Origin: a virus
Lineage: Duplodnaviria; Heunggongvirae; Uroviricota; Caudoviricetes
Length of the DNA stretch: 12,227 bases
Virus record (IMG/VR): IMGVR_UViG_2671180903_000014
Coordinates: 1-12,227 of that record
Strand: one strand, 5' to 3'
Shown: positions 1 to 11,163 of the stretch, in pieces
How the letters are laid out: each line of letters opens with the position of its first letter
Numbering within the stretch: the first letter of the stretch is position 1
The notes under the pieces: generated by a model
What the model was told of the DNA's origin: nothing
Databases searched by the model: none
The model's input: only the letters and a program-made list of their open reading frames with translations
Position numbers and translations under genes: made by a program

Positions 1-1461
1 ATGAAAAAATTACTGCATCTTTTTTTCCCGCTCTCGCTGCGGGTACGTTTTCTGTTAGCAACGGCAGCAGTAGTATTGGTGCTTTCGCTTGCCTACGGAA
101 TGGTTGCGCTGATCGGTTATAGCGTCAGTTTCGATAAAACCACGTTTCGGCTGTTACGTGGCGAGAGCAATCTGTTCTATACCCTTGCGAAGTGGGAAAA
201 CAATAAGTTGCATGTCGAGTTACCCGAAAATATCGACAAGCAAAGCCCCACCATGACGCTAATTTATGATGAGAACGGGCAGCTTTTATGGGCGCAACGT
301 GACGTGCCCTGGCTGATGAAGATGATCCAGCCTGACTGGCTGAAATCGAATGGTTTTCATGAAATTGAAGCGGATGTTAACGATACCAGCCTCTTGCTGA
401 GTGGAGATCATTCTATACAGCAACAGTTGCAGGAAGTGCGGGAAGATGATGACGACGCGGAGATGACCCACTCGGTGGCGGTAAACGTCTACCCGGCAAC
501 ATCGCGGATGCCAAAGTTAACCATTGTGGTGGTGGATACCATTCCGGTGGAGCTAAAAAGTTCCTATATGGTCTGGAGCTGGTTTATCTATGTGCTCTCA
601 GCCAATCTGCTGTTAGTGATCCCGCTGCTGTGGGTCGCCGCCTGGTGGAGTTTACGCCCCATCGAAGCCCTGGCAAAAGAAGTCCGCGAACTGGAAGAAC
701 ATAACCGCGAATTGCTCAATCCAGCCACAACGCGAGAACTGACCAGTCTGGTACGAAACCTGAACCGACTGTTAAAAAGTGAACGCGAACGTTACGACAA
801 ATATCGTACGACGCTCACCGACCTGACCCATAGTCTGAAAACGCCACTGGCGGTGCTGCAAAGTACGCTGCGTTCTCTGCGTAGTGAGAAGATGAGCGTC
901 AGTGATGCTGAGCCGGTAATGCTGGAGCAAATCAGCCGCATTTCACAGCAAATTGGCTACTACCTGCATCGTGCCAGTATGCGCGGCGGGACATTGCTTA
1001 GCCGCGAGCTGCATCCGGTCGCCCCACTGCTGGACAATCTCACCTCGGCGCTGAACAAAGTGTATCAACGCAAAGGGGTCAATATCTCTCTCGATATTTC
1101 GCCAGAGATCAGCTTTGTCGGTGAGCAGAACGATTTTGTCGAGGTGATGGGCAACGTGCTGGATAATGCCTGTAAATATTGCCTCGAGTTTGTCGAAATA
1201 TCTGCAAGGCAAACAGACGAGCATCTCTATATTGTGGTCGAGGATGATGGCCCCGGTATTCCCTTAAGCAAGCGAGAGGTCATTTTCGACCGTGGTCAAC
1301 GGGTTGATACTTTACGCCCTGGGCAAGGTGTAGGGCTGGCGGTAGCCCGCGAAATCACCGAGCAGTATGAGGGTAAAATCGTCGCCGGAGAGAGCATGCT
1401 GGGCGGTGCGCGGATGGAGGTGATTTTTGGTCGCCAGCATTCTGCGCCGAAAGATGAATAA
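1..1461 (+). CDS. phoQ: Sensor histidine kinase PhoQ of the PhoP/PhoQ two-component system
   Basis: 486-aa ORF with N-terminal transmembrane segment, periplasmic acidic patch EDDDDAE, second transmembrane segment, HAMP region, H-box [12 protein letters not shown] and ATPase motifs (DNACKY, DDGPGI, GQGVGL); matches enterobacterial PhoQ from memory. Confidence 0.95.
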
Positions 1462-1972
1462 ATATGTCCTTTTATCACCACAGCAAGGCAACCAATTGAT
1501 TTAATTAAACAACTCACACTGCAAAAAGTGCTAAAAACAGCAAATTGACTACACCATTAACTACACCGTTCGGTGCACTGTATGAAACAACGTTGAACAA
1601 ATAGACACAAGAAATATACAGGCGGGTAATCTTTCCAGGGGGAAGCGCACCAATTCATGAGGGGCGTTAATGTCGATATGGGGATCCCCATAACGGGGCT
1701 ACCAGATTTTTTTTCCGGTTAACTGTTAATCAGGCTGGTGGGCTTTACCTGTTCGGTAGGTGTTATGATTATCGTAATACCTTTCCCCCAATGGGGTAAA
1801 AGCTCCAACCGTAACGATGTTCGTTATGGTTGCCTTGATGGTCTGAGTGGTCATTTTGACCATTCAGCCAATGACCTTAATCAGAATTTTTCGCTAAAAA
1901 ATGACGTTGGCCACGTCATCCGGAAAGCACAAAATCACGTCGATTTTTAATGAACGGTTAAACCGTCTTTTT

Positions 1973-2007
1973 GTCACGGTGTGTCACTGGTTGTCACTCT
2001 CCGTCAC
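1973..2007. repeat. Four direct copies of (T)GTCAC spaced exactly 10 bp apart
   Basis: GTCAC at 1973, 1983, 1993 and 2003, in non-coding DNA downstream of phoQ; resembles tandem arm-type recombinase sites (lambda Int arm consensus contains AGTCAC) or another phased binding array. Confidence 0.6.
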
Positions 2008-2096
2008 GATTGAGGTGGTGGACATTCTGCCCGACCGCGCATTTTTGCGCTATCGGGAATATCAAACAGTTACCGCGCCGACTTCCTCAAATTGAG

Positions 2097-2239
2097 GTTT
2101 CCGAAAATATCAGCGGGTTAGCGATTAAGCTGACGAGTAATTAAACTGCGAAAATTTCGTAGTTTGTGACTATCTGAAAGATAGTCGGTTGTTCCGGCCT
2201 CAGCCGTTGGCTGTTTCCGAAAATATCAGTAGGTTAGGC
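2097..2239. repeat. Pair of ~26-bp direct repeats (GTTTCCGAAAATATCAG..GGTTAG) 115 bp apart
   Basis: 2097-2124 and 2212-2239 differ at 2-3 positions; palindromes lie between them (GACTATCT-gaa-AGATAGTC at 2169-2187; CCAAAGCTCA-aaaa-TGAGCTTTGG at 2240-2263). Confidence 0.6.
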
Positions 2240-2277
2240 CAAAGCTCAAAAATGAGCTTTGGAACAATATCAACAAG

Positions 2278-2559
2278 TTACCGCCGTAACCGCTCCGGCT
2301 TCTTCCAGTGGTACGTAATTTTCTCCGTTTCCCGATACAGTGCCACGCGGCGATTGTAGGCCAGCATTTCAAGAACGCGGATCCGTATGTTGCGCATATC
2401 CACATCATTAAGCTGGATACCATCACGGCGCATCACCTCAGCAACAACACGCGCATAATTTTCGGCTGTCACGCTGTCCGGCTGCGTGGCCTGTTCGTCA
2501 GTCTGCTGGCTGATTCCACCAGCACGGCGGATTAATCCCAGTATTTCGGCTTCTGTCAT
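2278..2559 (-). CDS. Hypothetical 93-aa protein
   Basis: ATG at 2559 with upstream GGGTG; charged, protein-like composition; the overlapping plus-strand ORF looks like antisense. No family recognised. Confidence 0.4.
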   Translation of the reverse strand: MTEAEILGLIRRAGGISQQTDEQATQPDSVTAENYARVVAEVMRRDGIQLNDVDMRNIRIRVLEMLAYNRRVALYRETEKITYHWKKPERLRR

Positions 2560-2592
2560 TGTGCACCCATCGTTCTGATTGTCTGGTGTCGT

Positions 2593-2795
2593 CGGGTCCT
2601 TCCTGGAATTATGGACCCGTTACGGGGCGGCGACCTCGCGGTTTTTATCTGTTTATGAAAATTTTCCGGCAAAAGTCAGATCCGTTCTTCTTCTCTGTAA
2701 CAGACTGTTTAACAATGAAAATATTAAAAAAAGAAAGGATCTGACACGAGGCATTTTAGCCAGAAAATGCCATTATCAGATCCTTTCTCATTTTT
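2593..2795 (+). other. Lambda-type cos site 'cos-A' (cosQ, cosN, cosB) in plus orientation
   Basis: GGGTCCTTCC..GTTACG|GGGCGGCGACCT|CGCGGTTTTT..TTATGAAAATTTTCCGG..CCGTTCTTCTTC closely follows the lambda right-end/left-end junction as recalled; the 12-nt cohesive-end sequence is at 2625-2636. Three R-site-like repeats GATCC(G/T)TTCT follow (2681-2695 plus, 2730-2745 inverted, 2777-2789 plus), with an A/T-rich IHF-like stretch between the first two. Confidence 0.8.
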
Positions 2796-2815
2796 GTTCA
2801 ATAATTGCGCGTCTG

Positions 2816-3358
2816 TTACTCGCCTTTCTTCTGTAGCAACTTTTCCGGTACGTTTCCGGTTGTTTCTTTCAAGTAATCAGCCAGTATCTGTGGGAGGTTG
2901 TCGGCAACTCTGGCACTGGCATTACAGGCTTTAACCACTTCCCTTTTAAGCCTATCCAGCATGGCGGGGGTAATCTGTGGGAAGCTCCTTTGCATAGTAA
3001 GCGGGAGGCTGTCCATGATTGATGAAATCTGACTCGCCAGCTTTGAAAGCGCGTACAGGCAAAACTCAGTATCAATCACGTCACCGCGATCGCGCTCGTT
3101 TTTAAGTTCCTGCGCCTCCGCCTGTGCTGTCAGTAATCTGATCCTGACTCGTAAGAGTTCATCATCATCAATATCGCCTTTGTCGTTTGTAAGCTGGCTA
3201 ATTGCATTGTTAACCCTATTGTCTATCACGCTGGCAACATCATAAAACGCCTCACGGCCTTTACGTTCAACGGGAGTCACTCCCCACTTGTCGAACGCTG
3301 TCGCACTTACACGGCAGCTTTTCGCCATGTTTTTTTTGTTCATCAGGTGCGATTTCAT
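2816..3358 (-). CDS. Terminase small subunit, lambda Nu1-like
   Basis: Residues LLTAQAEAQELKNERDRGDVIDTEFCLYALSKLASQISSIMDSLPLTMQRSFP align with lambda Nu1 (LTRAQADAQELKNARDSAEVVETAFCTFVLSRIAGEIASILDGLPLSVQRRFP); N-terminus NKK..W..G..PV matches the Nu1 DNA-binding region. Start may be ATG 3358 or ATG 3343. Confidence 0.85.
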   Translation of the reverse strand: MKSHLMNKKNMAKSCRVSATAFDKWGVTPVERKGREAFYDVASVIDNRVNNAISQLTNDKGDIDDDELLRVRIRLLTAQAEAQELKNERDRGDVIDTEFCLYALSKLASQISSIMDSLPLTMQRSFPQITPAMLDRLKREVVKACNASARVADNLPQILADYLKETTGNVPEKLLQKKGE

Positions 3359-3399
3359 TAATACACCAACTTAATTACTGCTTCAGGTTGGTGTATTGT

Positions 3400-3534
3400 T
3401 TGCATCTTTCCCTTTTTATTCATAAAGATAGATCAAACAACGAAACCACCACCCCCCCCCTGAAAAGGCTCATAAATAGCGAAAAACCGCTAGGTCGCCG
3501 CCCCGTAACGGGCCATAATTCCAGGAAGGACCCG
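3400..3534 (-). other. Second lambda-type cos site 'cos-B' (cosQ, cosN, degenerate cosB) in minus orientation
   Basis: Minus strand reads GGGTCCTTCCTGGAATTATGGCCCGTTACG|GGGCGGCGACCT|AGCGGTTTTTCGCTATTTATGA and then diverges, including a G9 run; cohesive-end sequence at 3492-3503. The 53-bp stretch 3482-3534 is an inverted repeat of 2593-2646 with one mismatch and one 1-bp indel. Confidence 0.75.
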
Positions 3535-3535
3535 T

Positions 3536-3557
3536 AAAAAAGCCGGATTTCTCCGGC
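3536..3557 (-). terminator. Rho-independent terminator after the 137-aa gene
   Basis: Minus strand GCCGGAGAAATCCGGC hairpin followed by TTTTTT; 6 bp past the stop of the 137-aa ORF. Confidence 0.7.
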
Positions 3558-3563
3558 CTTGTC

Positions 3564-3977
3564 TCAGATGGTTTTCAGTATGCGATCGATGTCGCCGTCA
3601 TCGCCCTGGTTTCTGCCATCGTATGCCATGCCAGCTGATACGGCTTGCGGGCTGTGCATGTCCATAAAGTTTTCAAAGGCTGCGGTAAGTTCCGGCGCAA
3701 CCTTCGGACGTTCCTGCTCTATGGTCATGCTAAGGATGCTTTTAGCCGTACCAACATCGATACAAGGCACGTTTGCCATTGCACGCAACAGCGGCTGATA
3801 GTCTTTATGCTCATGAAGCGCCATAATCGCATCAGCGCGCGGCTTGTCCTGCTCTTCCAGTTTGTTTAGTTGATATACGGCCTCATAGGTTGATAAACCT
3901 CTGTCAGCCATTGCCCGCGCTTCGACTTTAAATTTACTCGCCAGCGGTAGCGTCATGATGCTTTCATTCGTTGCCAT
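3564..3977 (-). CDS. Hypothetical 137-aa acidic protein, last gene of the capsid operon
   Basis: Strong RBS (AGGGGGA) before ATG 3977; 12 bp after the gpD-like stop; followed by a terminator. No family recognised; not lambda FI or W by recalled sequence. Confidence 0.55.
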   Translation of the reverse strand: MATNESIMTLPLASKFKVEARAMADRGLSTYEAVYQLNKLEEQDKPRADAIMALHEHKDYQPLLRAMANVPCIDVGTAKSILSMTIEQERPKVAPELTAAFENFMDMHSPQAVSAGMAYDGRNQGDDGDIDRILKTI

Positions 3978-3989
3978 CGTTCCCCCTGC

Positions 3990-4325
3990 TTATCGGGCCA
4001 GCGGCTGAACGGATACGCCGGAACCCGCAAAGGCGGCGCATTTTTTCGCATCGGTGTCGACGCTCTCAGGCCAGTTAACGGCGGCAATATTGAATATCCC
4101 CGTCTTGTAACACTGTGCTGATTTCTGCTTTGACGTGCCCACAGGGTACGAGGTCAGATAAACAGCCTTGCCAGATTCCTGACCATCCCACGGCTTAAAC
4201 TCGCCATTGTCTGCCAGCATCAGCGGGGTAAATTCCTGAATAACGCCAGCATCAGCGGCAAAATGTACCAACGTCGTGGATACCTGCTGACTGCCTGCAA
4301 ATAACTCAATGTATGGAGTGTCCAT
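3990..4325 (-). CDS. Head decoration protein, lambda gpD family
   Basis: 111 aa; TPLML, WDG, YKTGIF, WPE and AFAG motifs align with lambda gpD (TPLML..WDG..YKSGTF..WPE..AFAG); RBS GGGGGGA. Confidence 0.85.
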   Translation of the reverse strand: MDTPYIELFAGSQQVSTTLVHFAADAGVIQEFTPLMLADNGEFKPWDGQESGKAVYLTSYPVGTSKQKSAQCYKTGIFNIAAVNWPESVDTDAKKCAAFAGSGVSVQPLAR

Positions 4326-4337
4326 AGAATCCCCCCG

Positions 4338-5393
4338 TTAACCAATTTTGACGGTAACAAATTTGCGAATATCTGCCGGTACCGGCTGCGGTGCACTGTG
4401 TGTCTGCACGTACTCAATCGCCGGATCGCCGTCCTCAATCCAGTTTTTCGGGTAAAACATGTTTTGTGTTGCGCCCGTTCTTACCGCTTCCTGATCCATT
4501 ATCGCACCATAGGCCACCAGCCCTTTATTGTTGGTGTTACCCAGGACCAGCAAATCAGGCTCAAGGAAATATTTTTCGGTACCATCGCTGTCAGTGTATT
4601 TGCCGGAATAGACGATAAGGGCCAGATCACCAAGATAGCCTTTAAAGCTCACCACTTCGCCCAGGTTTTTACAGGCCAGTTCGGCGGCGGATTCTGAACC
4701 ACGGGAAAGATCGTACAGCTCACGGAATTTTTTAAAGCTGCCTAATGTGCGCCATACCTCAGCGCCCATAATCATGACGTTTGCGGGGCAACCAGCCTGA
4801 TCAGCATAAAGCTCGATGTCATAGATTGGGTCGTGCATGTCTTTATCCTGCTCGGACCATTTTTTACCCTTGGCCTGCTCTATGATGCAGTTTTCCGGTA
4901 TTTTCCAGTCGATTTCATAGCGTTCTATGCCTTCGCCCTCAATGATGTTTTTTCCGGTCGTTACCGCATTCACCGCCAGCCATTCCACGCGTGCCTTAAT
5001 GGCGTTTATCTGGCGGCGCATGTTGCCAGTAATCAGGCGCATACGGCGATAGGTAGGGTCGTTAAGCTGTGCCGGATCTTCTCCAGCCATGCGCATGATG
5101 GTTTTCGTTGGATCGATTTCGTGCTTTGGCTTCATGTAGCCAGGTTTGATTGTGCTGGTTTCGTACCCTTTATCGCGCTGAACCTGGCTACCCACCATAG
5201 GCGAACAAAACGCCGACATGGTGACTTCTTCAATGTCCAGGGTATCCAGCATGATGTTTTGCGTGCTGAATGTCGCCACGTTCGGGAAAAACAGCGTGGT
5301 AAACAGAGGGCTGAATTTAAAATCCGCAATATCCCCGCGATTCAGGTACATGAAAAGCTGGTTAGTGTTAAGTGCCGTTGCTTTGCCTGCCAT
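4338..5393 (-). CDS. Major capsid protein, lambda gpE family
   Basis: 351 aa; collinear with lambda gpE (FKF.PLF..LFF, PGY.KPKHE, DP.YRR.R, RDK..DP..DIE.YA, YKG..GD.A.VYSG, VLGNT, YPKNW, GDPA.E); RBS GGGGGTGA. Confidence 0.9.
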   Translation of the reverse strand: MAGKATALNTNQLFMYLNRGDIADFKFSPLFTTLFFPNVATFSTQNIMLDTLDIEEVTMSAFCSPMVGSQVQRDKGYETSTIKPGYMKPKHEIDPTKTIMRMAGEDPAQLNDPTYRRMRLITGNMRRQINAIKARVEWLAVNAVTTGKNIIEGEGIERYEIDWKIPENCIIEQAKGKKWSEQDKDMHDPIYDIELYADQAGCPANVMIMGAEVWRTLGSFKKFRELYDLSRGSESAAELACKNLGEVVSFKGYLGDLALIVYSGKYTDSDGTEKYFLEPDLLVLGNTNNKGLVAYGAIMDQEAVRTGATQNMFYPKNWIEDGDPAIEYVQTHSAPQPVPADIRKFVTVKIG

Positions 5394-5599
5394 TATTCAC
5401 CCCCATAATTTTTATGCATCCCAAGCGCCGCAAGTAAATAAGAGCGTACAAGTGAACCTATCGACGGCTCCGGCGTCATCAGCGGATCCAGTCCAGCCGC
5501 AACGCCAGCTTCATAGTTTTTTTTGTGGCGCTGCTTGAGCACCTCCACGATTTCGGGGCTTATGTACACCGAAACACCGCCTTTTTTCTCTTCAGCCAT
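5393..5599 (-). CDS. Hypothetical 68-aa protein, first gene of the capsid operon
   Basis: ATG at 5599 preceded by AAGAGGAA; its stop overlaps the capsid start codon (TAATG), suggesting translational coupling. No family recognised. Confidence 0.45.
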   Translation of the reverse strand: MAEEKKGGVSVYISPEIVEVLKQRHKKNYEAGVAAGLDPLMTPEPSIGSLVRSYLLAALGMHKNYGGE

Positions 5600-5633
5600 A
5601 GTAAGAAATTCCTCTTCGACTAAAAAAATCATA

Positions 5634-5684
5634 ACTGGATGTTTATCCAGTCCTGATTATAATCAGAATTGCATTTTATGCAAT
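5634..5684 (-). promoter_or_regulatory. Sigma70-like promoter overlapped by three adjacent palindromic operators
   Basis: Minus-strand -35 TTGCAT (5683-5678), 16-bp spacer, -10 TATAAT (5661-5656). Palindromes: ACTGGAT-gttt-ATCCAGT (5634-5651), CTGATTATAATCAG (5653-5666), ATTGCAT-ttt-ATGCAAT (5668-5684). Confidence 0.55.
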
Positions 5685-5764
5685 GATATTGAGTTATGTT
5701 GCAAATTATGAAATGATTATCCCGATCACGAACGCCAGTGCATCCAAAAACCTCATATGCAAAA

Positions 5765-5830
5765 GCCCGATAAGAACCCTCTGACCTTATCGGGCTTTTT
5801 TTGGGCGCAAAAAAGCCGGATTGCTCCGGC
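5765..5830. terminator. Tandem terminators between the 74-aa gene and the capsid promoter
   Basis: Hairpin GCCCGATAAG..CTTATCGGGC with T7 on the plus side and A4 on the other (5765-5802), then minus-strand GCCGGAGCAATCCGGC plus T6 (5809-5830). Confidence 0.65.
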
Positions 5831-5850
5831 TATGTGTGCTGTGTGCTGGC

Positions 5851-6075
5851 TCAGTCTCTGATCTCTTTCAGAAATTCTATCAATGCATCTATCTGTTCAG
5901 GATTTACCGCCAGCATTTCACCGGATAGAGCACATCTCACAAAACCATGCTGATCCTTTTCAATCAGTGCGCCCGTCTCCAGGAATGCGCGGTAATCATT
6001 GATGCTCATCGTCTCCATGTTGTCAGCATGGTATTTATCACGCTGTTTTAATATCTCATCAAATTTCATCGGCAT
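5851..6075 (-). CDS. Hypothetical 74-aa protein, monocistronic between terminators
   Basis: ATG at 6075 preceded by AGAGGAAAAA; terminators on both sides. No family recognised; only one Cys, so not an Ogr/Delta zinc finger. Confidence 0.5.
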   Translation of the reverse strand: MPMKFDEILKQRDKYHADNMETMSINDYRAFLETGALIEKDQHGFVRCALSGEMLAVNPEQIDALIEFLKEIRD

Positions 6076-6171
6076 TGTTTTTTTCCTCTGTTGTGTCTGT
6101 TTGTTTCAGATAGTAACTATGCCTGACCGTGACGAAAACCCGGTAATGCGCCATACCGTTTCAACTGGTGC

Positions 6172-6194
6172 AAAAAAAGCCGGATTTCTCCGGC
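6172..6194 (-). terminator. Rho-independent terminator after the PerC-like gene
   Basis: Minus strand GCCGGAGAAATCCGGC followed by T7; near-identical to the terminators at 3536-3557 and 5809-5830. Confidence 0.7.
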
Positions 6195-6201
6195 TGTTTG
6201 A

Positions 6202-6474
6202 TTAGCTGTCCTGGTAATTGCGCCATATTTCATCACCAGCACCATCTATACCCATTTCGGCATAAGTGCGATCGACTGCCTTTTTCAGGTCTCCGAAATT
6301 ATCCGGCGGCTCCGGTGCCCTCTGTGCCTTCCTTGAACATTCCAGCCGTCGCATCGTGATGTGATGCCGTTCCTTGTCTGTCTCCACCAGCTGCATGACT
6401 TCACCCCATCGCGCCGCCGCCCTCCGGTAAAAGCCTTTCGCCTCCAGTTCCTCCGCTATGCGGTCATGTACCAT
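6202..6474 (-). CDS. Small PerC-family-like regulator (about 90 aa)
   Basis: Start taken at ATG 6474 (MVHDRIAEELEAKGFYRRAAARWGEVM), 11 nt after the SSB stop with GGGGGTG as RBS; the A..LE..G.YRRAA.RW motif resembles PerC-family proteins from memory. The longer 130-aa ORF call would overlap SSB. Confidence 0.45.
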   Translation of the reverse strand: MVHDRIAEELEAKGFYRRAAARWGEVMQLVETDKERHHITMRRLECSRKAQRAPEPPDNFGDLKKAVDRTYAEMGIDGAGDEIWRNYQDS

Positions 6475-6484
6475 CGTCACCCCC

Positions 6485-6895
6485 TCAGAACGAAATATCA
6501 TCACCGTAAGAGTCATCGCCTCCCGCTGGTGGCTGATTACCCTGTGTGCCTGTGGTTTTGCGTCTGTTCCCGCCTGGACGTGCCGCGCGGGCACTGATTA
6601 CGCTGTCTGCGATAACCTGCCAGCCCTGCCGCGTTTCTCCGTTCTGTCCGGTCCACTGGCTTACCTGCATCGTGCCGGATACGCTGGCAACATCGCCTTT
6701 TTGATGTTTAGCCAGGAAGTCGGCCTGTTTGCCAAATGCGATGACCGATAACCATAACGTCGCCTGTCCGTCCTGTGCCTGGCTGCATGGCAAAGATACC
6801 GCCATACGCGCCAGCGTCATCGGTGTGCCCTTGCTGGTCTGTTTTACCTGCGGGTCGTCCACCAGCCGCCCGTAAGCGGCTATCTGTGCCGTCAT
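6485..6895 (-). CDS. Single-stranded DNA-binding protein, SSB-like
   Basis: 136 aa; OB-fold-like N-terminal region, Gly/Pro/Gln-rich linker and acidic C-terminal tip GDDISF (compare E. coli SSB DDDIPF). Confidence 0.65.
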   Translation of the reverse strand: MTAQIAAYGRLVDDPQVKQTSKGTPMTLARMAVSLPCSQAQDGQATLWLSVIAFGKQADFLAKHQKGDVASVSGTMQVSQWTGQNGETRQGWQVIADSVISARAARPGGNRRKTTGTQGNQPPAGGDDSYGDDISF

Positions 6896-7143
6896 AATTC
6901 CACCTCTCCGGTTTTAACGTTGATGGTTGTTACCTGTTCCGCTTCGGCAATCTCCCGTTCTGTCAGCGTGGCAAAGTTTGCCGCCGCCGTGGTCATGAAT
7001 GCGCTTATCAGGTCGGGATGTTCCTTCGCGTATCCTTCCCGCGTGTGGCGGTCTATCGTTCTGATTGCCACCTTTAAGGTGTGCTCAGTCATGTCTAACG
7101 CTTTATATTTTGGCTCTGTTCTGTCTCTGCGTTTTTGGGTCAT
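6892..7143 (-). CDS. Hypothetical small protein between the origin and ssb
   Basis: The longest ORF begins at a GTG (7173) inside the iteron array; ATG 7143 or ATG 7092 are more plausible starts. Stop overlaps the ssb start (ATGA). Confidence 0.35.
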   Translation of the reverse strand: MTQKRRDRTEPKYKALDMTEHTLKVAIRTIDRHTREGYAKEHPDLISAFMTTAAANFATLTEREIAEAEQVTTINVKTGEVEL

Positions 7144-7149
7144 TTCTCG

Positions 7150-7350
7150 CAACCTCTCACTTTTTCGCCTCACTTTTTCAAGCGTCTCACTTCGTCGCAG
7201 TTGGGATTTTCGGTTTTTCTATGTGTGTGTTTCATAAGTATTTTTTTACCCCTCACTTTTGAGGATGTATACAGGTCGAAAAGTGAGGGAGAGCGGGCTA
7301 ATTTTGGCCCTCTTTCTATCCCCCTCGCTTTTGCTCCTCACTTTTATAGC
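7150..7350. repeat. Iteron array with a central A/T-rich stretch; candidate replication origin
   Basis: Seven copies of CCTCAC(T/G)TTT (7156, 7169, 7186, 7250, 7323, 7337 direct; 7279 inverted) flanking an A/T-rich stretch at 7201-7248, immediately 3' of the rep gene. Confidence 0.6.
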
Positions 7351-8743
7351 GGCGCTACATCATCCCCATCGATACGAATAACCCCATCTTTTTCCAGCTT
7401 GTACAGCCAGCGCCGGAAGTTTTTCATTTCATACCCCAGCTTTTTCATGTCATCACGTAACAGCGGGATCGTGCACTTGTCGCCGTTCTGTGTGCGTGAA
7501 CGGATGCACCCCCATAGCGCGGTATGGTTTTCCGTCTTGTTCCCTGCCTCCTCGATGCGCTCCAGTTCAACAGGAGGGCGCGGATCATCCACCACCACCA
7601 GCGACGTGATTAATTCACCGTCAGCGTCGGTAAAAAGCTCCACCACGCGTAAGTCATATGCGGCTTCTTTGAGTTCCTCCGCGTCCTTCATTTTGGTGCA
7701 TGAGATAACCAGCGCTTCGCTTCCTGCGTCCTCCCTGCGTATCCGGTATTCAGCATCCAGCGAAGCACGAAATGCACTGGAACCGCGCGCGCCTTTCGTC
7801 TCATCCTTGCCGGAATGGTGAACCACCAGCACCGTGGCCCCTGTGCGTCGTTTCAGTTCGTCACAACCACGGATAAACGCCCCATATCACGGGAATCATT
7901 TTCATCATTCCCACCAAAGCAACGCGCCAGCGTATCCAGAATAATCATGCGTACAGGTTTACCCGTTTCCCGCTCCACCTGACGGGCAGCGATAACCATT
8001 TCATCAACATCAAGCGGGGCAGCCGGAAAGATGGGGCGGTTTACCAGATACAGATTTTTCACCTGCTCATCGTGCACAACCTCCCAGGCTTTTACACGAC
8101 GCGGAACACCTATACCGCCTTCACCAACCACATAGAGAACCGCACCATGTGCAACCCTGCGGCCTCCCCACTGGCGACCAGTGGCAACATGGCACGCCCA
8201 CGATCCGGCAAGGAATGATTTATAGGACCCGCTAGCCCCGTATATGCTGCATAGCGATACCGCCGGAATAATCCCCTTAACCACGTAATCCAGTTGCGTG
8301 TCGTATCCGGTAGATCCAACGCTCATCGGTAGCGTGGTTTTTCGCTGGTGGTTTTTTTCTTCCGCCGGCTCTTTCCCGCGCACCCGTTCCAGGTATTCGC
8401 GCCAGTTCTCCCGCATATGGCTGTGCATCCCTTCGGGGTAATAATTCGCATCAGTTACACCCGCCGCCGCCAGCTTGTGCGCAATGGCATTAATATTTGA
8501 TGGCCTGATGTGGCCTGCCTTGTACAGCCGGACACAATAGCGCCCCTCGTCGATGATTCTCAGGTCTGCCAGTTCATCCAGTTGATCATCAGCCAGCACA
8601 ACGGGAGGCACATTATCGCCAGCCAGTCGCCCGTCCTGTTCCTGCCACTGTTTCGCATGTGCCCAGGCATCACTACCCGCAAAAATAATGACTTCGGTCA
8701 TCTTGTCGTAAGGCTGTTTTTTTAAGTTCGGTGCGCTTTTCAT
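7344..8743 (-). pseudogene. RepA-like AAA ATPase (RecA-fold replication helicase) split by a frameshift
   Basis: The upstream ORF (8743-7853) ends ..ILDTLARCFGGNDENDSRDMG; the downstream ORF continues in another frame with AFIRGCDELKRRTGATVLVVHHSGKDETKG. Joined, they give the typical DEN..M......L....G..VL.VHH..K motif. The frames meet in the C4/G4 run at 7880-7883; one extra G would restore a ~470-aa protein. Confidence 0.75.
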
Positions 8744-8761
8744 TTCTTGCCCCTGAATCCG

Positions 8762-9208
8762 TTAAAATCTGGCCTGAACTGCCGGAGGCGTAGGCCATTC
8801 AATATCTGGCGCACTGGAGGTATCAACCAGCTCCAGTGCATCCAGATAATCCAGCCACAAATTATATTGCGCCAGTTCCTCACCTTTCAGACGACCAATA
8901 GCGGCTTTACCGGGCCATTGCTTACTGTTCATGTATTCGTTGGCCTGGTTAATTAGTAGCTGTCTTTCTGATTCAGTAATTTCAATAAGCTCTTCATGCG
9001 TGGGTGGAGGAATATCTGCCCACGCAGGCAGCCCATCATCTCCGGCAATACGGATTTTTCCTTGTGGCGGTTCAGCCATAAACTCACTGATAATATTTTG
9101 ATTTACTTCCTTAGCGTCTGATAAATCCCATCCCTCTGATTTATATTTATCAATCATATCCACAGGGAAAAAAGCATTATGCCTTGCGCTATAAACATAT
9201 TCGTTCAT
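8762..9208 (-). CDS. Tail fibre assembly protein (Tfa)
   Basis: N-terminus MNEYVYSARHNAFFP and C-terminus ..VDTSSAPDIEWPTPP match Tfa proteins (lambda Tfa ends ..VDTSTAPDIEWP); RBS AGGGTGA before ATG 9208. The longest ORF starts at a GTG (9217). Confidence 0.85.
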   Translation of the reverse strand: MNEYVYSARHNAFFPVDMIDKYKSEGWDLSDAKEVNQNIISEFMAEPPQGKIRIAGDDGLPAWADIPPPTHEELIEITESERQLLINQANEYMNSKQWPGKAAIGRLKGEELAQYNLWLDYLDALELVDTSSAPDIEWPTPPAVQARF

Positions 9209-9228
9209 ATAAATCACCCTGAATAAAA

Positions 9229-9642
9229 TTACTCACCAACAGCCCACCAACTGTAATTCATCGATACCGTGTCGCTGGTTGATGACGTTCTGTAAGCAGA
9301 ATTAAAGCCGGTTAACGTTGGGCCTTCTGCAGTCATCACGAACCCTCGCCCAGCGCCTAAAGGCGCACCGCCATCACCAGAATGAGTAAGCATGGCGCAG
9401 TCCGCTTTTTTGGGGAAAGGGATGCTGAATGTAATTCTCATTGTTTGCGTCGATAATGTCGGCGTAACCGCACCACGACCATATTGCAGGATTTTCCCGT
9501 TGGGTAATTTCATCCATCCATCACCACTGGCAAAAGAGGCCATGTCCGGTATCTGATTTTCCCCTGTCCCCACATCCCGTTTTGCCGCTTCTCCCAAACC
9601 AACGTTTATGAAAATGCAGAAATAACGAGCAAATGGCATCAT
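9229..9642 (-). pseudogene. Tail-fibre C-terminal variable segment without its constant N-terminal part (alternate cassette of an invertible segment)
   Basis: Lies between the crossover site and tfa, reading away from pin, as for the alternate Sv' cassette of the Mu G segment and the e14 P segment; no tail-fibre N-terminal domain upstream. Confidence 0.5.
9589..9614. other. Candidate Pin crossover site (pix-like)
   Basis: TTCTCCCAAACCAACGTTTATGAAAA matches the recalled hixL site TTCTTGAAAACCAAGGTTTTTGATAA at 20 of 26 positions; sits just upstream of pin inside the tail-fibre fragment. Confidence 0.55.
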
Positions 9643-9668
9643 TCCTGCTTTTGTCAGGGGGATCTACC

Positions 9669-10223
9669 ATGCTTATTGGCTATGTACGCGTATCAACAAA
9701 TGACCAGAACACAGATCTACAACGTAATGCGCTGAACTGTGCAGGATGCGAGCTGATTTTTGAAGACAAGATAAGCGGTACAAAGTCCGAAAGGCCGGGA
9801 CTGAAAAAACTGCTCAGGACATTATCGGCAGGTGACACGCTGGTGGTCTGGAAACTGGACCGGCTGGGGCGCAGTATGCGGCATCTTGTCGTGCTGGTGG
9901 AGGAGTTGCGCGAACGAGGCATCAACTTTCGTAGTCTGACGGATTCAATTGATACCAGTACCCCAATGGGGCGCTTTTTCTTTCATGTGATGGGTGCCCT
10001 GGCTGAAATGGAGCGTGAACTGATTGTTGAAAGAACAAAAGCTGGACTGGAAGCTGCTCGCGCACAGGGACGAATTGGTGGACGTCGTCCCAAACTTACA
10101 CCAGAACAATGGGAACAGGCCGGACGATTAATTGCATCAGGAGTTCCTCGCCAGAAGGTGGCGATTATCTATGATGTTGGTGTGTCAACTTTGTATAAGA
10201 GGTTTCCTGCAGGGGATAAATAA
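9669..10223 (+). CDS. pin: Serine DNA invertase Pin (Hin/Gin/Cin family)
   Basis: MLIGYVRVSTNDQNTDLQRNAL..VVWKLDRLGRS..GINFRSLTDSIDTS.PMGRFFFHVMGALAEMERELI..GRIGGR with C-terminal HTH; RBS AGGGGGA before ATG 9669. The listed ORF start at 9633 is an upstream extension. Confidence 0.92.
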   Translation: MLIGYVRVSTNDQNTDLQRNALNCAGCELIFEDKISGTKSERPGLKKLLRTLSAGDTLVVWKLDRLGRSMRHLVVLVEELRERGINFRSLTDSIDTSTPMGRFFFHVMGALAEMERELIVERTKAGLEAARAQGRIGGRRPKLTPEQWEQAGRLIASGVPRQKVAIIYDVGVSTLYKRFPAGDK

Positions 10224-10329
10224 AGTTAAAGACACTTTGTGTACAAAAGAAAGTAAAACAACAGCAACTTGTTGCAATTTTATCAATAAAAGTAGTATTG
10301 TCGTGAAAAATTGATTAAAGATTAATATT

Positions 10330-11163
10330 ATGCATGTTTTTGATAATAATGGAATTGAACTGAAAGCTGAGTGTTCGATAGGTGAAGAGGATGGTGTTTA
10401 TGGTCTAATCCTTGAGTCGTGGGGGCCGGGTGACAGAAACAAAGATTACAATATCGCTCTTGATTATATCATTGAACGGTTGGTTGATTCTGGTGTATCC
10501 CAAGTCGTAGTATATCTGGCGTCATCATCAGTCAGAAAACATATGCATTCTTTGGATGAAAGAAAAATCCATCCTGGTGAATATTTTACTTTGATTGGTA
10601 ATAGCCCCCGCGAGATACGCTTGAAGATGTGTGGTTATCAGGCTTATTTTAGTCGTACGGGGAGAAAGGAAATTCCTTCCGGCAATAGAACGAAACGAAT
10701 ATTGATAAATGTTCCAGGTATTTATAGTGACAGTTTTTGGGCGTCTATAATACGTGGAGAACTATCAGAGCTTTCACAGCCTACAGATGATGAATCGCTT
10801 CTGAATATGAGGGTTAGTAAATTAATTAAGAAAACGTTGGGTCAACCCGAGGGCTCCAGGAAACCAGTTGAGGTAGAAAGACTACAAAAAGTTTATGTCC
10901 GAGACCCGATGGTAAAAGCTTGGATTTTACAGCAAAGTAAAGGTATATGTGAAAACTGTGGTAAAAATGCTCCGTTTTATTTAAATGATGGAAACCCATA
11001 TTTGGAAGTGCATCATGTAATTCCCCTGTCTTCAGGTGGTGCTGATACAACAGATAACTGTGTTGCCCTTTGTCCGAATTGTCATAGAGAATTGCACTAT
11101 AGTAAAAATGCAAAAGAACTAATCGAGATGCTTTACGTTAATATAAACCGATTACAGAAATAA
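10330..11163 (+). CDS. mcrA: Type IV modification-dependent restriction endonuclease McrA (HNH)
   Basis: 277 aa; matches e14 McrA from memory, with C-terminal HNH motif HHVIPLSSGG..NCVALCPNCH; A/T-rich context typical of acquired DNA. Confidence 0.92.
   Translation: MHVFDNNGIELKAECSIGEEDGVYGLILESWGPGDRNKDYNIALDYIIERLVDSGVSQVVVYLASSSVRKHMHSLDERKIHPGEYFTLIGNSPREIRLKMCGYQAYFSRTGRKEIPSGNRTKRILINVPGIYSDSFWASIIRGELSELSQPTDDESLLNMRVSKLIKKTLGQPEGSRKPVEVERLQKVYVRDPMVKAWILQQSKGICENCGKNAPFYLNDGNPYLEVHHVIPLSSGGADTTDNCVALCPNCHRELHYSKNAKELIEMLYVNINRLQK

What the first reader, a model, noticed from the sequence alone, without database searches (positions are those of the whole stretch)
7344..8743. Rep gene broken by a one-base shift in a G4 homopolymer
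The two halves of the RepA-like ATPase join perfectly if the run at 7880-7883 has one more base. This is either a true inactivating mutation (a replication-dead element), a homopolymer sequencing error, or a slippage-prone switch for replication competence.
Basis: seen in the sequence. Interest (0 to 1): 0.5.

Follow-up and report, generated by a model that had tools for sequence, protein, structure and literature searches.

The report
Frameshifted replication gene in satellite island
The replication helicase gene of a known kind of E. coli phage-satellite island (an EcCICFT073-type PICI next to phoQ) has lost one G from a five-G run; this is a real, inherited knockout in one bacterial lineage, so it is an ordinary pseudogene and neither a sequencing error nor a genetic switch.

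Summary
On the minus strand, ORF 7853-8743 (296 aa) and ORF 7344-7832 (162 aa, -1 frame) are the two halves of a 466-aa RepA-family (AAA_25) helicase. Adding one G to the GGGG run (CCCC at 7880-7883 on the + strand) gives a 1401-nt gene with no nucleotide differences from the intact gene in E. coli 95NR1.

The deletion is real. The same G4 allele occurs in at least six clean independent assemblies, plus two weaker ones. All long contigs share one host backbone, within 1-2 SNPs per 8.7 kb.

It is not a switch:
- None of 563 complete E. coli genomes carrying the gene has G4.
- The intact protein is on at least 1000 contigs.
- In 79 homologues from other Enterobacterales the peptide DMGAF is kept, but the run is interrupted in 61.
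- There is no stimulatory RNA structure downstream.

The gene is the replication initiator of an EcCICFT073-family PICI at the roxA/phoQ site. Its iteron origin and two lambda-like cos sites are intact. In this window the island has also lost its integrase/alpA half, through an illegitimate junction (8765/8766) with the right end of prophage e14. The finding is ordinary and of low interest.

The parts
7853..8743 (-). 5' part of rep (296-aa product). It holds the N-terminal domain plus Walker A (GASGSYKS) and Walker B (MIILD) of the AAA_25/RepA-type helicase core, and ends in 8 out-of-frame codons and a TGA.
   Evidence: Pfam AAA_25 E=5.9e-31, covering profile positions 19-169 of 195. The exact product is already in NCBI as CTR58759.1 and KDZ47352.1.
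7880..7883 (-). GGGG run on the coding strand (CCCC on the + strand). This is the site of the one-base deletion; the intact allele has GGGGG, from ATG-GGG-GCG = Met-Gly-Ala.
   Evidence: In 525 complete genomes the 60-mer aligns as 61 nt with one extra base, and none matches exactly.
7344..7879 (-). 3' part of rep in the -1 frame. It holds the HHSGK and KGARGSSAF helicase motifs and the C-terminal domain. The mechanical ORF is 7344-7832 (162 aa).
   Evidence: The intact protein aligns to RSF1010 RepA (1G8Y) across the break.
7155..7345 (.). Putative island replication origin, immediately 3' of rep. It has six CCTCACTTTT-type iterons (7155, 7168, 7251, 7279 inverted, 7323, 7336) around a more AT-rich spacer (7193-7250, 64% AT).
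   Evidence: (7 matches in the window against 0.82 expected; 0 of 200 shuffles reach 7). The layout is the one described for PICI origins in PMC6092414. Function is inferred.
2278..7143 (-). Rest of the retained PICI half, with all ORFs intact: 83-aa hypothetical, SSB (6485-6895), PerC-family (6202-6594), small ORFs, lambda-E-like major capsid (4338-5393), D-like decoration (3990-4325), 137-aa hypothetical, Nu1-like TerS (2816-3358), 93-aa hypothetical.
   Evidence: The gene order is the same as in EcCICFT073.
2593..2669 (+). cos-like site, copy 2, containing GGGCGGCGACCT. It is the inverted partner of 3459-3534.
   Evidence: inverted repeats of 54 and 25 nt. Two cos sites are described for EcCICFT073 (PMC6092414).
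3459..3534 (-). cos-like site, copy 1, upstream of terS in the lambda-like arrangement.
   Evidence: It is about 80% identical to the cos regions of lambda, HK629, HK630 and DE3.
8765..8766 (.). Rearrangement junction. PICI sequence ends 22 nt upstream of the rep ATG, inside the 3' end of the DUF4222 gene, and e14 sequence (the last ~30 nt of tfaP, overlapping tfaE) begins. There is no homology across the junction, and base 8766 matches neither parent.
   Evidence: The same adjacency is scaffolded in GCA_001283345.2, with an N in place of 8766-9587.
8766..11163 (.). Right end of prophage e14: tfaE (8762-9217 -), stfE variable part (9229-9642 -), pix crossover site (9589-9614), pinE (9633-10223 +), mcrA (10330-11163 +). 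icdC and ycgX follow.

Best explanation
A single G was lost from a five-G run (ATG-GGG-GCG) in the rep gene of an EcCICFT073-family phage-inducible chromosomal island (PICI) inserted between roxA and phoQ. The most likely cause is ordinary replication slippage. The loss shifts the frame after residue 288, between the Walker B strand and the HHSGK/arginine-finger motifs of a RepA/DnaB-type hexameric helicase. The result is a 296-aa stump without a complete ATPase site or the C-terminal domain, and a 3' part that is not translated. The iteron origin just downstream is intact but has no initiator, so the island cannot amplify itself after induction. The mutation is genuine, recent and inherited within one E. 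coli lineage. In the sub-lineage sampled here the island was disabled a second time: a chromosomal rearrangement, consistent with a roughly 30-45 kb inversion, joined rep to the right end of prophage e14 and removed int, alpA and the upstream operon. Shown here: the deletion, its recurrence in independent assemblies, the identity of the family and the junction. Inferred: loss of function, slippage as the cause, and the inversion (only one junction was seen).
For: The repaired gene has 0 of 1401 nt differences from the intact WP_000833618.1. The G4 allele was confirmed in DNA of GCA_001283345.2, GCA_000704845.1, GCA_000447105.2, ERZ15610015, SRR14872201 and ERR1744010, and more weakly in SRR24565210 and SRR24451064. 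The long contigs differ from the window by only 1-2 SNPs in 7.3-8.8 kb including phoQ, whereas strain 95NR1 differs at 29 of 1867 positions in phoQ; this points to one host lineage. None of 563 complete genomes with the gene has G4, and 525 have the extra base. The intact protein is on at least 1000 contigs, against 16 for the 162-aa product. AAA_25 spans residues 148-315 of the intact protein, and the break falls at profile position 169 of 195. The alignment to RSF1010 RepA runs across the break. The island has the architecture and attachment site of EcCICFT073, with iterons 3' of rep and two cos sites. In EcCICFT073, deleting pri-rep lowers transfer about 100-fold, and deleting int or alpA abolishes it (PMC6092414, Table 1). 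All other island ORFs in the window have the same length as in 95NR1, which fits a recent event.
Against: No reads were inspected, so support rests on agreement between assemblies. Sequencing platforms were not checked. One Logan contig (L096) has five other single-base gaps and is unreliable. L097 carries G4 with two extra SNPs, which could mean a second independent loss or later divergence. Loss of function has not been tested: low-level -1 slippage of tRNA-Gly on G-GGG would recreate the exact wild-type protein, and replication driven by a helper phage or another island cannot be excluded. The island core from 3500 to 8765 is about 99.9% conserved across E. coli, so the single-origin argument rests mainly on the host flank.
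Confidence: 0.86

Rival explanations
1. Homopolymer sequencing or assembly error: the real genome has five G and the gene is intact.
For: Short homopolymers are typical indel-error sites in some platforms. The repaired gene is otherwise identical to the commonest allele. One Logan contig with G4 is visibly indel-prone (L096).
Against: The identical deletion is in at least six clean, independently produced assemblies from NCBI, ENA and Logan, in three different structural contexts. The same sequence context is assembled as G5 in 525 complete genomes, so a systematic context error is unlikely.
Confidence: 0.03
2. A slippage-prone contingency switch: the run toggles between G4 and G5 to turn island replication off and on.
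For: The mutation lies in a mononucleotide run and is reversible in principle. L097 carries G4 on a slightly different sequence, which could be a second event.
Against: Runs of 4-5 nt are far below the roughly 7 nt or more typical of phase-variable loci (general knowledge). None of 563 complete genomes has G4. G4 carriers with readable context share one host backbone. Among 79 homologues from other species the peptide DMGAF is kept in 77, but the Gly codon is GGC, GGT or GGA in 61, so the run is a by-product of codon choice and is not conserved.
Confidence: 0.04
3. Recoding: a -1 ribosomal slip of tRNA-Gly on G-GGG (or polymerase slippage) makes enough full-length Rep for the gene to be functional as it stands.
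For: A P-site slip from GGG to the overlapping GGG re-pairs perfectly and would give exactly DMGAFIRG... (read directly from the sequence).
Against: The site is not a canonical X-XXY-YYZ heptamer. The next codon, CGT, is a common one. The 100 nt downstream fold no better than shuffles (z=+0.71; 157 of 200 shuffles fold at least as well). The allele is a rare derivative of an in-frame gene, so no frameshift signal has had time to evolve. G4 is too short for transcriptional slippage (general knowledge).
Confidence: 0.03
4. The two ORFs work as a split protein: separate N- and C-terminal polypeptides assemble into an active helicase.
For: ORF2 has a possible GTG start 20 nt after the ORF1 stop.
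Against: The split lies inside the RecA-like core, between Walker B and the next conserved strand. ORF2 would start inside the VVHHSGK motif. No homologue among the 80 loci fetched, nor among the cluster members read, is naturally split at this point.
Confidence: 0.02

Closest known systems
EcCICFT073, the prototype Gram-negative PICI of E. coli CFT073 (Fillol-Salom et al. 2018, PMC6092414)
   Same: It uses the same insertion site between roxA and phoQ. The gene order is the same and all genes face one way: int, alpA-type HTH, Icd-like, small ORFs, DUF4222, replication gene, hypothetical, SSB, PerC, capsid-E homologue, decoration-D homologue. Both have iterons 3' of the replication gene and two lambda-like cos sites.
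   Different: The replication gene here is a 466-aa RepA-type helicase, whereas CFT073 has a 584-aa primase-family Pri-Rep; the paper mentions four allelic Pri-Rep variants in E. coli PICIs. This island has a Nu1-like TerS where CFT073 has a different 144-aa ORF. In the window rep is frameshifted and the int-to-DUF4222 half is missing.
RepA hexameric helicase of plasmid RSF1010 (PDB 1G8Y) / Pfam AAA_25
   Same: Both have a RecA-like core with Walker A, Walker B and an HH(S/A)xK motif. The alignment covers residues 150-321, and AAA_25 matches at E=2e-43.
   Different: Similarity is weak (E=0.005). The island protein has an extra ~145-aa N-terminal domain, which matches a segment of the PHROG 864 'DNA primase' family, and a ~150-aa C-terminal domain that is presumably for origin binding.
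Frameshift pseudogenes in decaying prophages and satellites (for example the cryptic prophage e14 itself)
   Same: A single-base indel in a short homopolymer inactivates a mobility or replication gene, the rest of the element is retained, and further rearrangement follows.
   Different: Nothing of substance. This is a very young example, with no other change in the gene.

Membership tests
PICI, EcCICFT073 family | PICI-specific attachment site (here roxA/phoQ) not used by prophages | tested here: met
   The island abuts phoQ in the window. Relatives L001 and L003, and CFT073, sit between roxA and phoQ. In the window only the phoQ-side end remains.
PICI, EcCICFT073 family | Integrase and AlpA-type master regulator | tested here: not met
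   Both are absent from the window, because island sequence stops at 8765. They are present in relatives carrying the same frameshift allele (L003). The window therefore holds a remnant of a member, not a complete member.
PICI, EcCICFT073 family | Replication initiator followed immediately by an iteron origin with an AT-rich spacer | tested here: met
   rep lies at 7344-8743 and six iterons at 7155-7345. However, rep is frameshifted.
PICI, EcCICFT073 family | Unidirectional transcription, small size, no tail or lysis genes, own packaging determinants (cos and/or terS) | tested here: met
   All island ORFs from 2278 to 8743 are on the minus strand. The island encodes capsid, decoration and TerS homologues only, and has two cos-like sites.
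PICI, EcCICFT073 family | Induction, replication and packaging dependent on a helper phage | not testable with these tools
   This needs experiments. It has been shown for EcCICFT073 in PMC6092414.
RepA/DnaB-type (AAA_25) helicase | Complete RecA-like core: Walker A, Walker B, HHxxK motif and arginine-finger region in one polypeptide | tested here: not met
   The intact allele meets this (AAA_25 148-315; 1G8Y alignment). The window allele stops after Walker B at profile position 169 of 195.
Phase-variable (contingency) homopolymer locus | Long, conserved repeat tract with both lengths common across the population | tested here: not met
   The run is 4-5 nt. It is interrupted in 61 of 79 homologues, and G4 is in none of 563 complete genomes.
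Programmed -1 ribosomal frameshift site | Slippery heptamer plus downstream stimulatory structure, conserved among relatives | tested here: not met
   There is no X-XXY-YYZ heptamer. The downstream fold has z=+0.71. All relatives are in frame.

The most novel reading that the evidence does not exclude
The replication-dead island is not just decaying but is being kept as a fixed chromosomal module. All other genes (PerC regulator, SSB, capsid and decoration homologues, TerS, two cos sites) are intact. The frameshift lineage has persisted through at least two further rearrangements of the island's left arm. A PICI stripped of replication and excision might still interfere with lambda-like phages or regulate host genes, and the 296-aa Rep stump might even act as a dominant-negative or decoy.
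Probability: 0.12. Interest if true: 0.35.

Novelty: already known. Interest (0 to 1): 0.1.

Why it matters
It matters little beyond annotation. The two ORFs should be annotated as one frameshifted pseudogene of a PICI rep gene, not as two 'prophage proteins'. The island in this strain should be scored as immobile, since it has no int or alpA and a broken rep. The case is also a clean example of how to separate a real homopolymer indel from a sequencing error without reads: by exact look-up of the truncated products in independent assemblies.

Tried and rejected
- **Pin-mediated origin of the PICI/e14 junction.** I scanned the window, an e14-type locus and an intact island for pix-like sites (up to 8 mismatches). 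Only the genuine pix at 9589-9614 was found, and nothing at 8765. A loose hix-like palindrome (TTAACC-AT-GGTTTT) sits in the intact island at the breakpoint, but the crossover point is 2 nt away from its centre. I rejected this idea.
- **The 822-bp difference between the window and L002.** I first read it as a deletion. It is a scaffold gap, a single N.
- **EcCIEDL933.** I considered this as the closest relative. It is the capsid-forming PICI prototype and a different kind of island, whereas EcCICFT073 matches.
- **Phage collection.** Searching with the rep region returned only a 34-nt tfa match, so the gene is not in deposited phage genomes at megablast level.
- **NCBIfam.** It gave only sub-threshold RadA hits.
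- **L093 and L094.** These contigs carry the 162-aa ORF but begin after the run, so they say nothing about G4 versus G5.

Full report
**1. The observation**

The minus strand of 7344-8743 carries two ORFs:
- 7853-8743, 296 aa;
- 7344-7832, 162 aa, in the -1 frame.

Frame 0 reads ...CFGGNDENDSRDMGRLSVVVTN*. The -1 frame is open from TAT at 7879 and reads YGAFIRGCDELKRRTGATVLVVHHSGK....

The run is CCCC at 7880-7883 on the + strand, which is GGGG on the coding strand. Inserting one G gives GAT ATG GGG GCG TTT, and a 1401-nt ORF. That ORF has no nucleotide difference from the annotated intact 'helicase RepA family protein' WP_000833618.1 of E. coli 95NR1.

**2. Real mutation or sequencing error?**

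A 60-mer centred on the run has no exact match in any of the 563 complete E. coli genomes that carry the gene. In 525 of them it aligns as 61 nt with one extra base.

Exact-sequence look-ups show that both truncated products are already deposited, for example as CTR58759.1, CTX21984.1 and KDZ47352.1. I fetched the encoding contigs and confirmed G4 in the DNA.

| Dataset | Locus | Quality of the evidence |
|---|---|---|
| GCA_001283345.2 | L002/L089 | clean |
| GCA_000704845.1 | L004/L091 | clean |
| GCA_000447105.2 | L092 | clean |
| ERZ15610015 | L003/L090 | clean |
| SRR14872201 | L005 | clean |
| ERR1744010 | L095 | clean |
| SRR24565210 | L097 | G4 with two extra SNPs |
| SRR24451064 | L096 | weak: five other single-base gaps |

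Two further contigs, L093 and L094, begin after the run and are uninformative.

Agreement between independent assemblies from different sources excludes a one-off error. The correct G5 assembly of the same sequence context in hundreds of genomes excludes a systematic one. No reads were inspected, and I did not check the sequencing platforms.

**3. Single origin or switch?**

- The long G4 contigs differ from the window by 1-2 SNPs over 7.3-8.8 kb, including phoQ. Strain 95NR1, with an intact rep, differs at 29 of 1867 positions in phoQ. The carriers therefore belong to one host lineage.
The 162-aa product is on 16.
- In 79 homologues from other Enterobacterales species the peptide D-M-G-A-F is kept in 77. 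The glycine codon is GGC, GGT or GGA in 61 and GGG in 18. The five-G run is therefore an accident of codon choice, not a conserved tract.
- A run of 4-5 nt is well below the length of known contingency tracts (general knowledge).
- The 100 nt downstream of the site fold no better than shuffled sequence (z=+0.71), and the site is not a canonical slippery heptamer. A low-level P-site slip on G-GGG cannot be excluded, but nothing supports it.

**4. What the gene is**

- The intact protein matches Pfam AAA_25 over residues 148-315 (E=2e-43). In the window product the match stops at profile position 169 of 195.
- It aligns to the RSF1010 RepA helicase (1G8Y) over residues 150-321. This places the break between Walker B (MIILD) and the VLVVHHSGK and KGARGSSAF motifs.
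- PHROGs place it in helicase-primase families.

Loss of helicase function is inferred, not tested.

**5. What the element is**

In relatives, the gene lies in a roughly 11-kb island between roxA and phoQ. The gene order there is int, HTH regulator, Icd-like, small ORFs, DUF4222, rep, hypothetical, SSB, PerC, hypotheticals, lambda-E-like capsid, D-like decoration, hypothetical, Nu1-like TerS.

E. coli CFT073 has the same layout at the same site. That island is EcCICFT073, the prototype Gram-negative PICI. Its capsid (c1499) and decoration (c1500) homologues, pri-rep-ori replicon and two cos sites are described in PMC6092414.

The window shows the matching features:
- Six CCTCACTTTT iterons lie directly 3' of rep, at 7155-7345, around an AT-richer spacer. 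The pattern has 7 matches in the window against 0.82 expected.
- Two inverted lambda-like cos sites (GGGCGGCGACCT) flank terS, at 2593-2669 and 3459-3534.

The replication gene itself differs. Here it is a RepA-type helicase; in CFT073 it is a 584-aa primase-family protein. That is consistent with the allelic Pri-Rep variants mentioned in the paper.

**6. Consequence**

In EcCICFT073, deleting pri-rep lowers transfer from about 8x10^3 to about 50, and deleting int or alpA abolishes it (PMC6092414, Table 1). By analogy, the frameshift alone would leave an island like L003 poorly transferable. L003 carries the G4 allele with int and the alpA region present.

In the window the island is doubly disabled. 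Island sequence stops at 8765, 22 nt upstream of the rep ATG. It is joined to the last ~30 nt of tfaP of prophage e14, and the sequence continues through tfaE, stfE', pix, pinE, mcrA, icdC and ycgX.

Relative to the K-12 gene order, the orientation of the two blocks fits an inversion of the segment from rep through phoQ and icd to tfaP. Only this one junction was seen. No pix-like site or homology lies at the breakpoint, so the join is illegitimate and not Pin-mediated. GCA_001283345.2 scaffolds the same adjacency, with an N across the repeated tfaE/stfE segment.

All other island ORFs keep the lengths they have in 95NR1, and rep carries no second change. The inactivation is therefore recent.

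**7. Verdict**

This is a genuine, lineage-specific one-base deletion that makes a pseudogene of the rep helicase in a remnant of a known PICI family. It is not an error, a switch or a recoding site. Novelty: already known. Interest: low.

Noticed in passing
window 8765-8766 (also L002 9977-9979): There is an abrupt junction between the PICI (3' end of the DUF4222 gene, just upstream of rep) and the 3' end of e14 tfaP. There is no homology across it, and base 8766 matches neither parent. The gene orientation on the two sides fits a roughly 30-45 kb chromosomal inversion spanning phoPQ-purB-icd and most of e14. No complete E. coli genome in the collection has this junction.
   Followed up: partly
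window 2593-2669 and 3459-3534: Two lambda-like cos sites containing GGGCGGCGACCT lie in inverted orientation on either side of the Nu1-like terS gene. This matches the two-cos arrangement reported for EcCICFT073.
   Followed up: partly
window 7155-7345: Six CCTCACTTTT iterons, one of them inverted, surround an AT-richer spacer directly 3' of rep. The last iteron overlaps the rep stop codon. This is the presumed island origin.
   Followed up: yes
window 9589-9614: There is a perfect 26-bp pix crossover site (TTCTCCCAAACCAACGTTTATGAAAA) just upstream of pinE. Only one of the two sites of the e14 invertible segment lies in the window; the other would now be at the far end of the inferred inversion. 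If so, Pin could flip a very large segment, or more likely the tail-fibre switch no longer works.
   Followed up: no
L004/L091 (GCA_000704845.1) 1-4360, compared with L003 5807-10000: The same frameshifted right arm of the island is attached to a different left arm in L004 (a 413-aa integrase and a Phage_ASH protein). Homology to the L003 version starts only about 800 nt upstream of rep. This suggests module exchange or recombination between two satellites.
   Followed up: partly
window 2000-3500, compared with L001: Nearly all island divergence from strain 95NR1 is in the terS/cos/attR-proximal 1.5 kb (58 of the 62 mismatches; 64 differences when the two gaps are counted). The stretch from 3500 to 8765 has about six differences in all, one of them the frameshift. 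The packaging module is therefore mosaic.
   Followed up: no
window 2097-2121 and 2213-2237: A 25-nt direct repeat (GTTTCCGAAAATATCAGCGGGTTAG, 92% identical copies, 116 nt apart) lies between the last island ORF and phoQ. It may be related to attR or to cosB.
   Followed up: no
L097 (SRR24565210): This contig has the G4 allele together with two SNPs in rep (window positions 7815 and 8070) that the other carriers lack. It is either later divergence or a second independent loss of a G.
   Followed up: no
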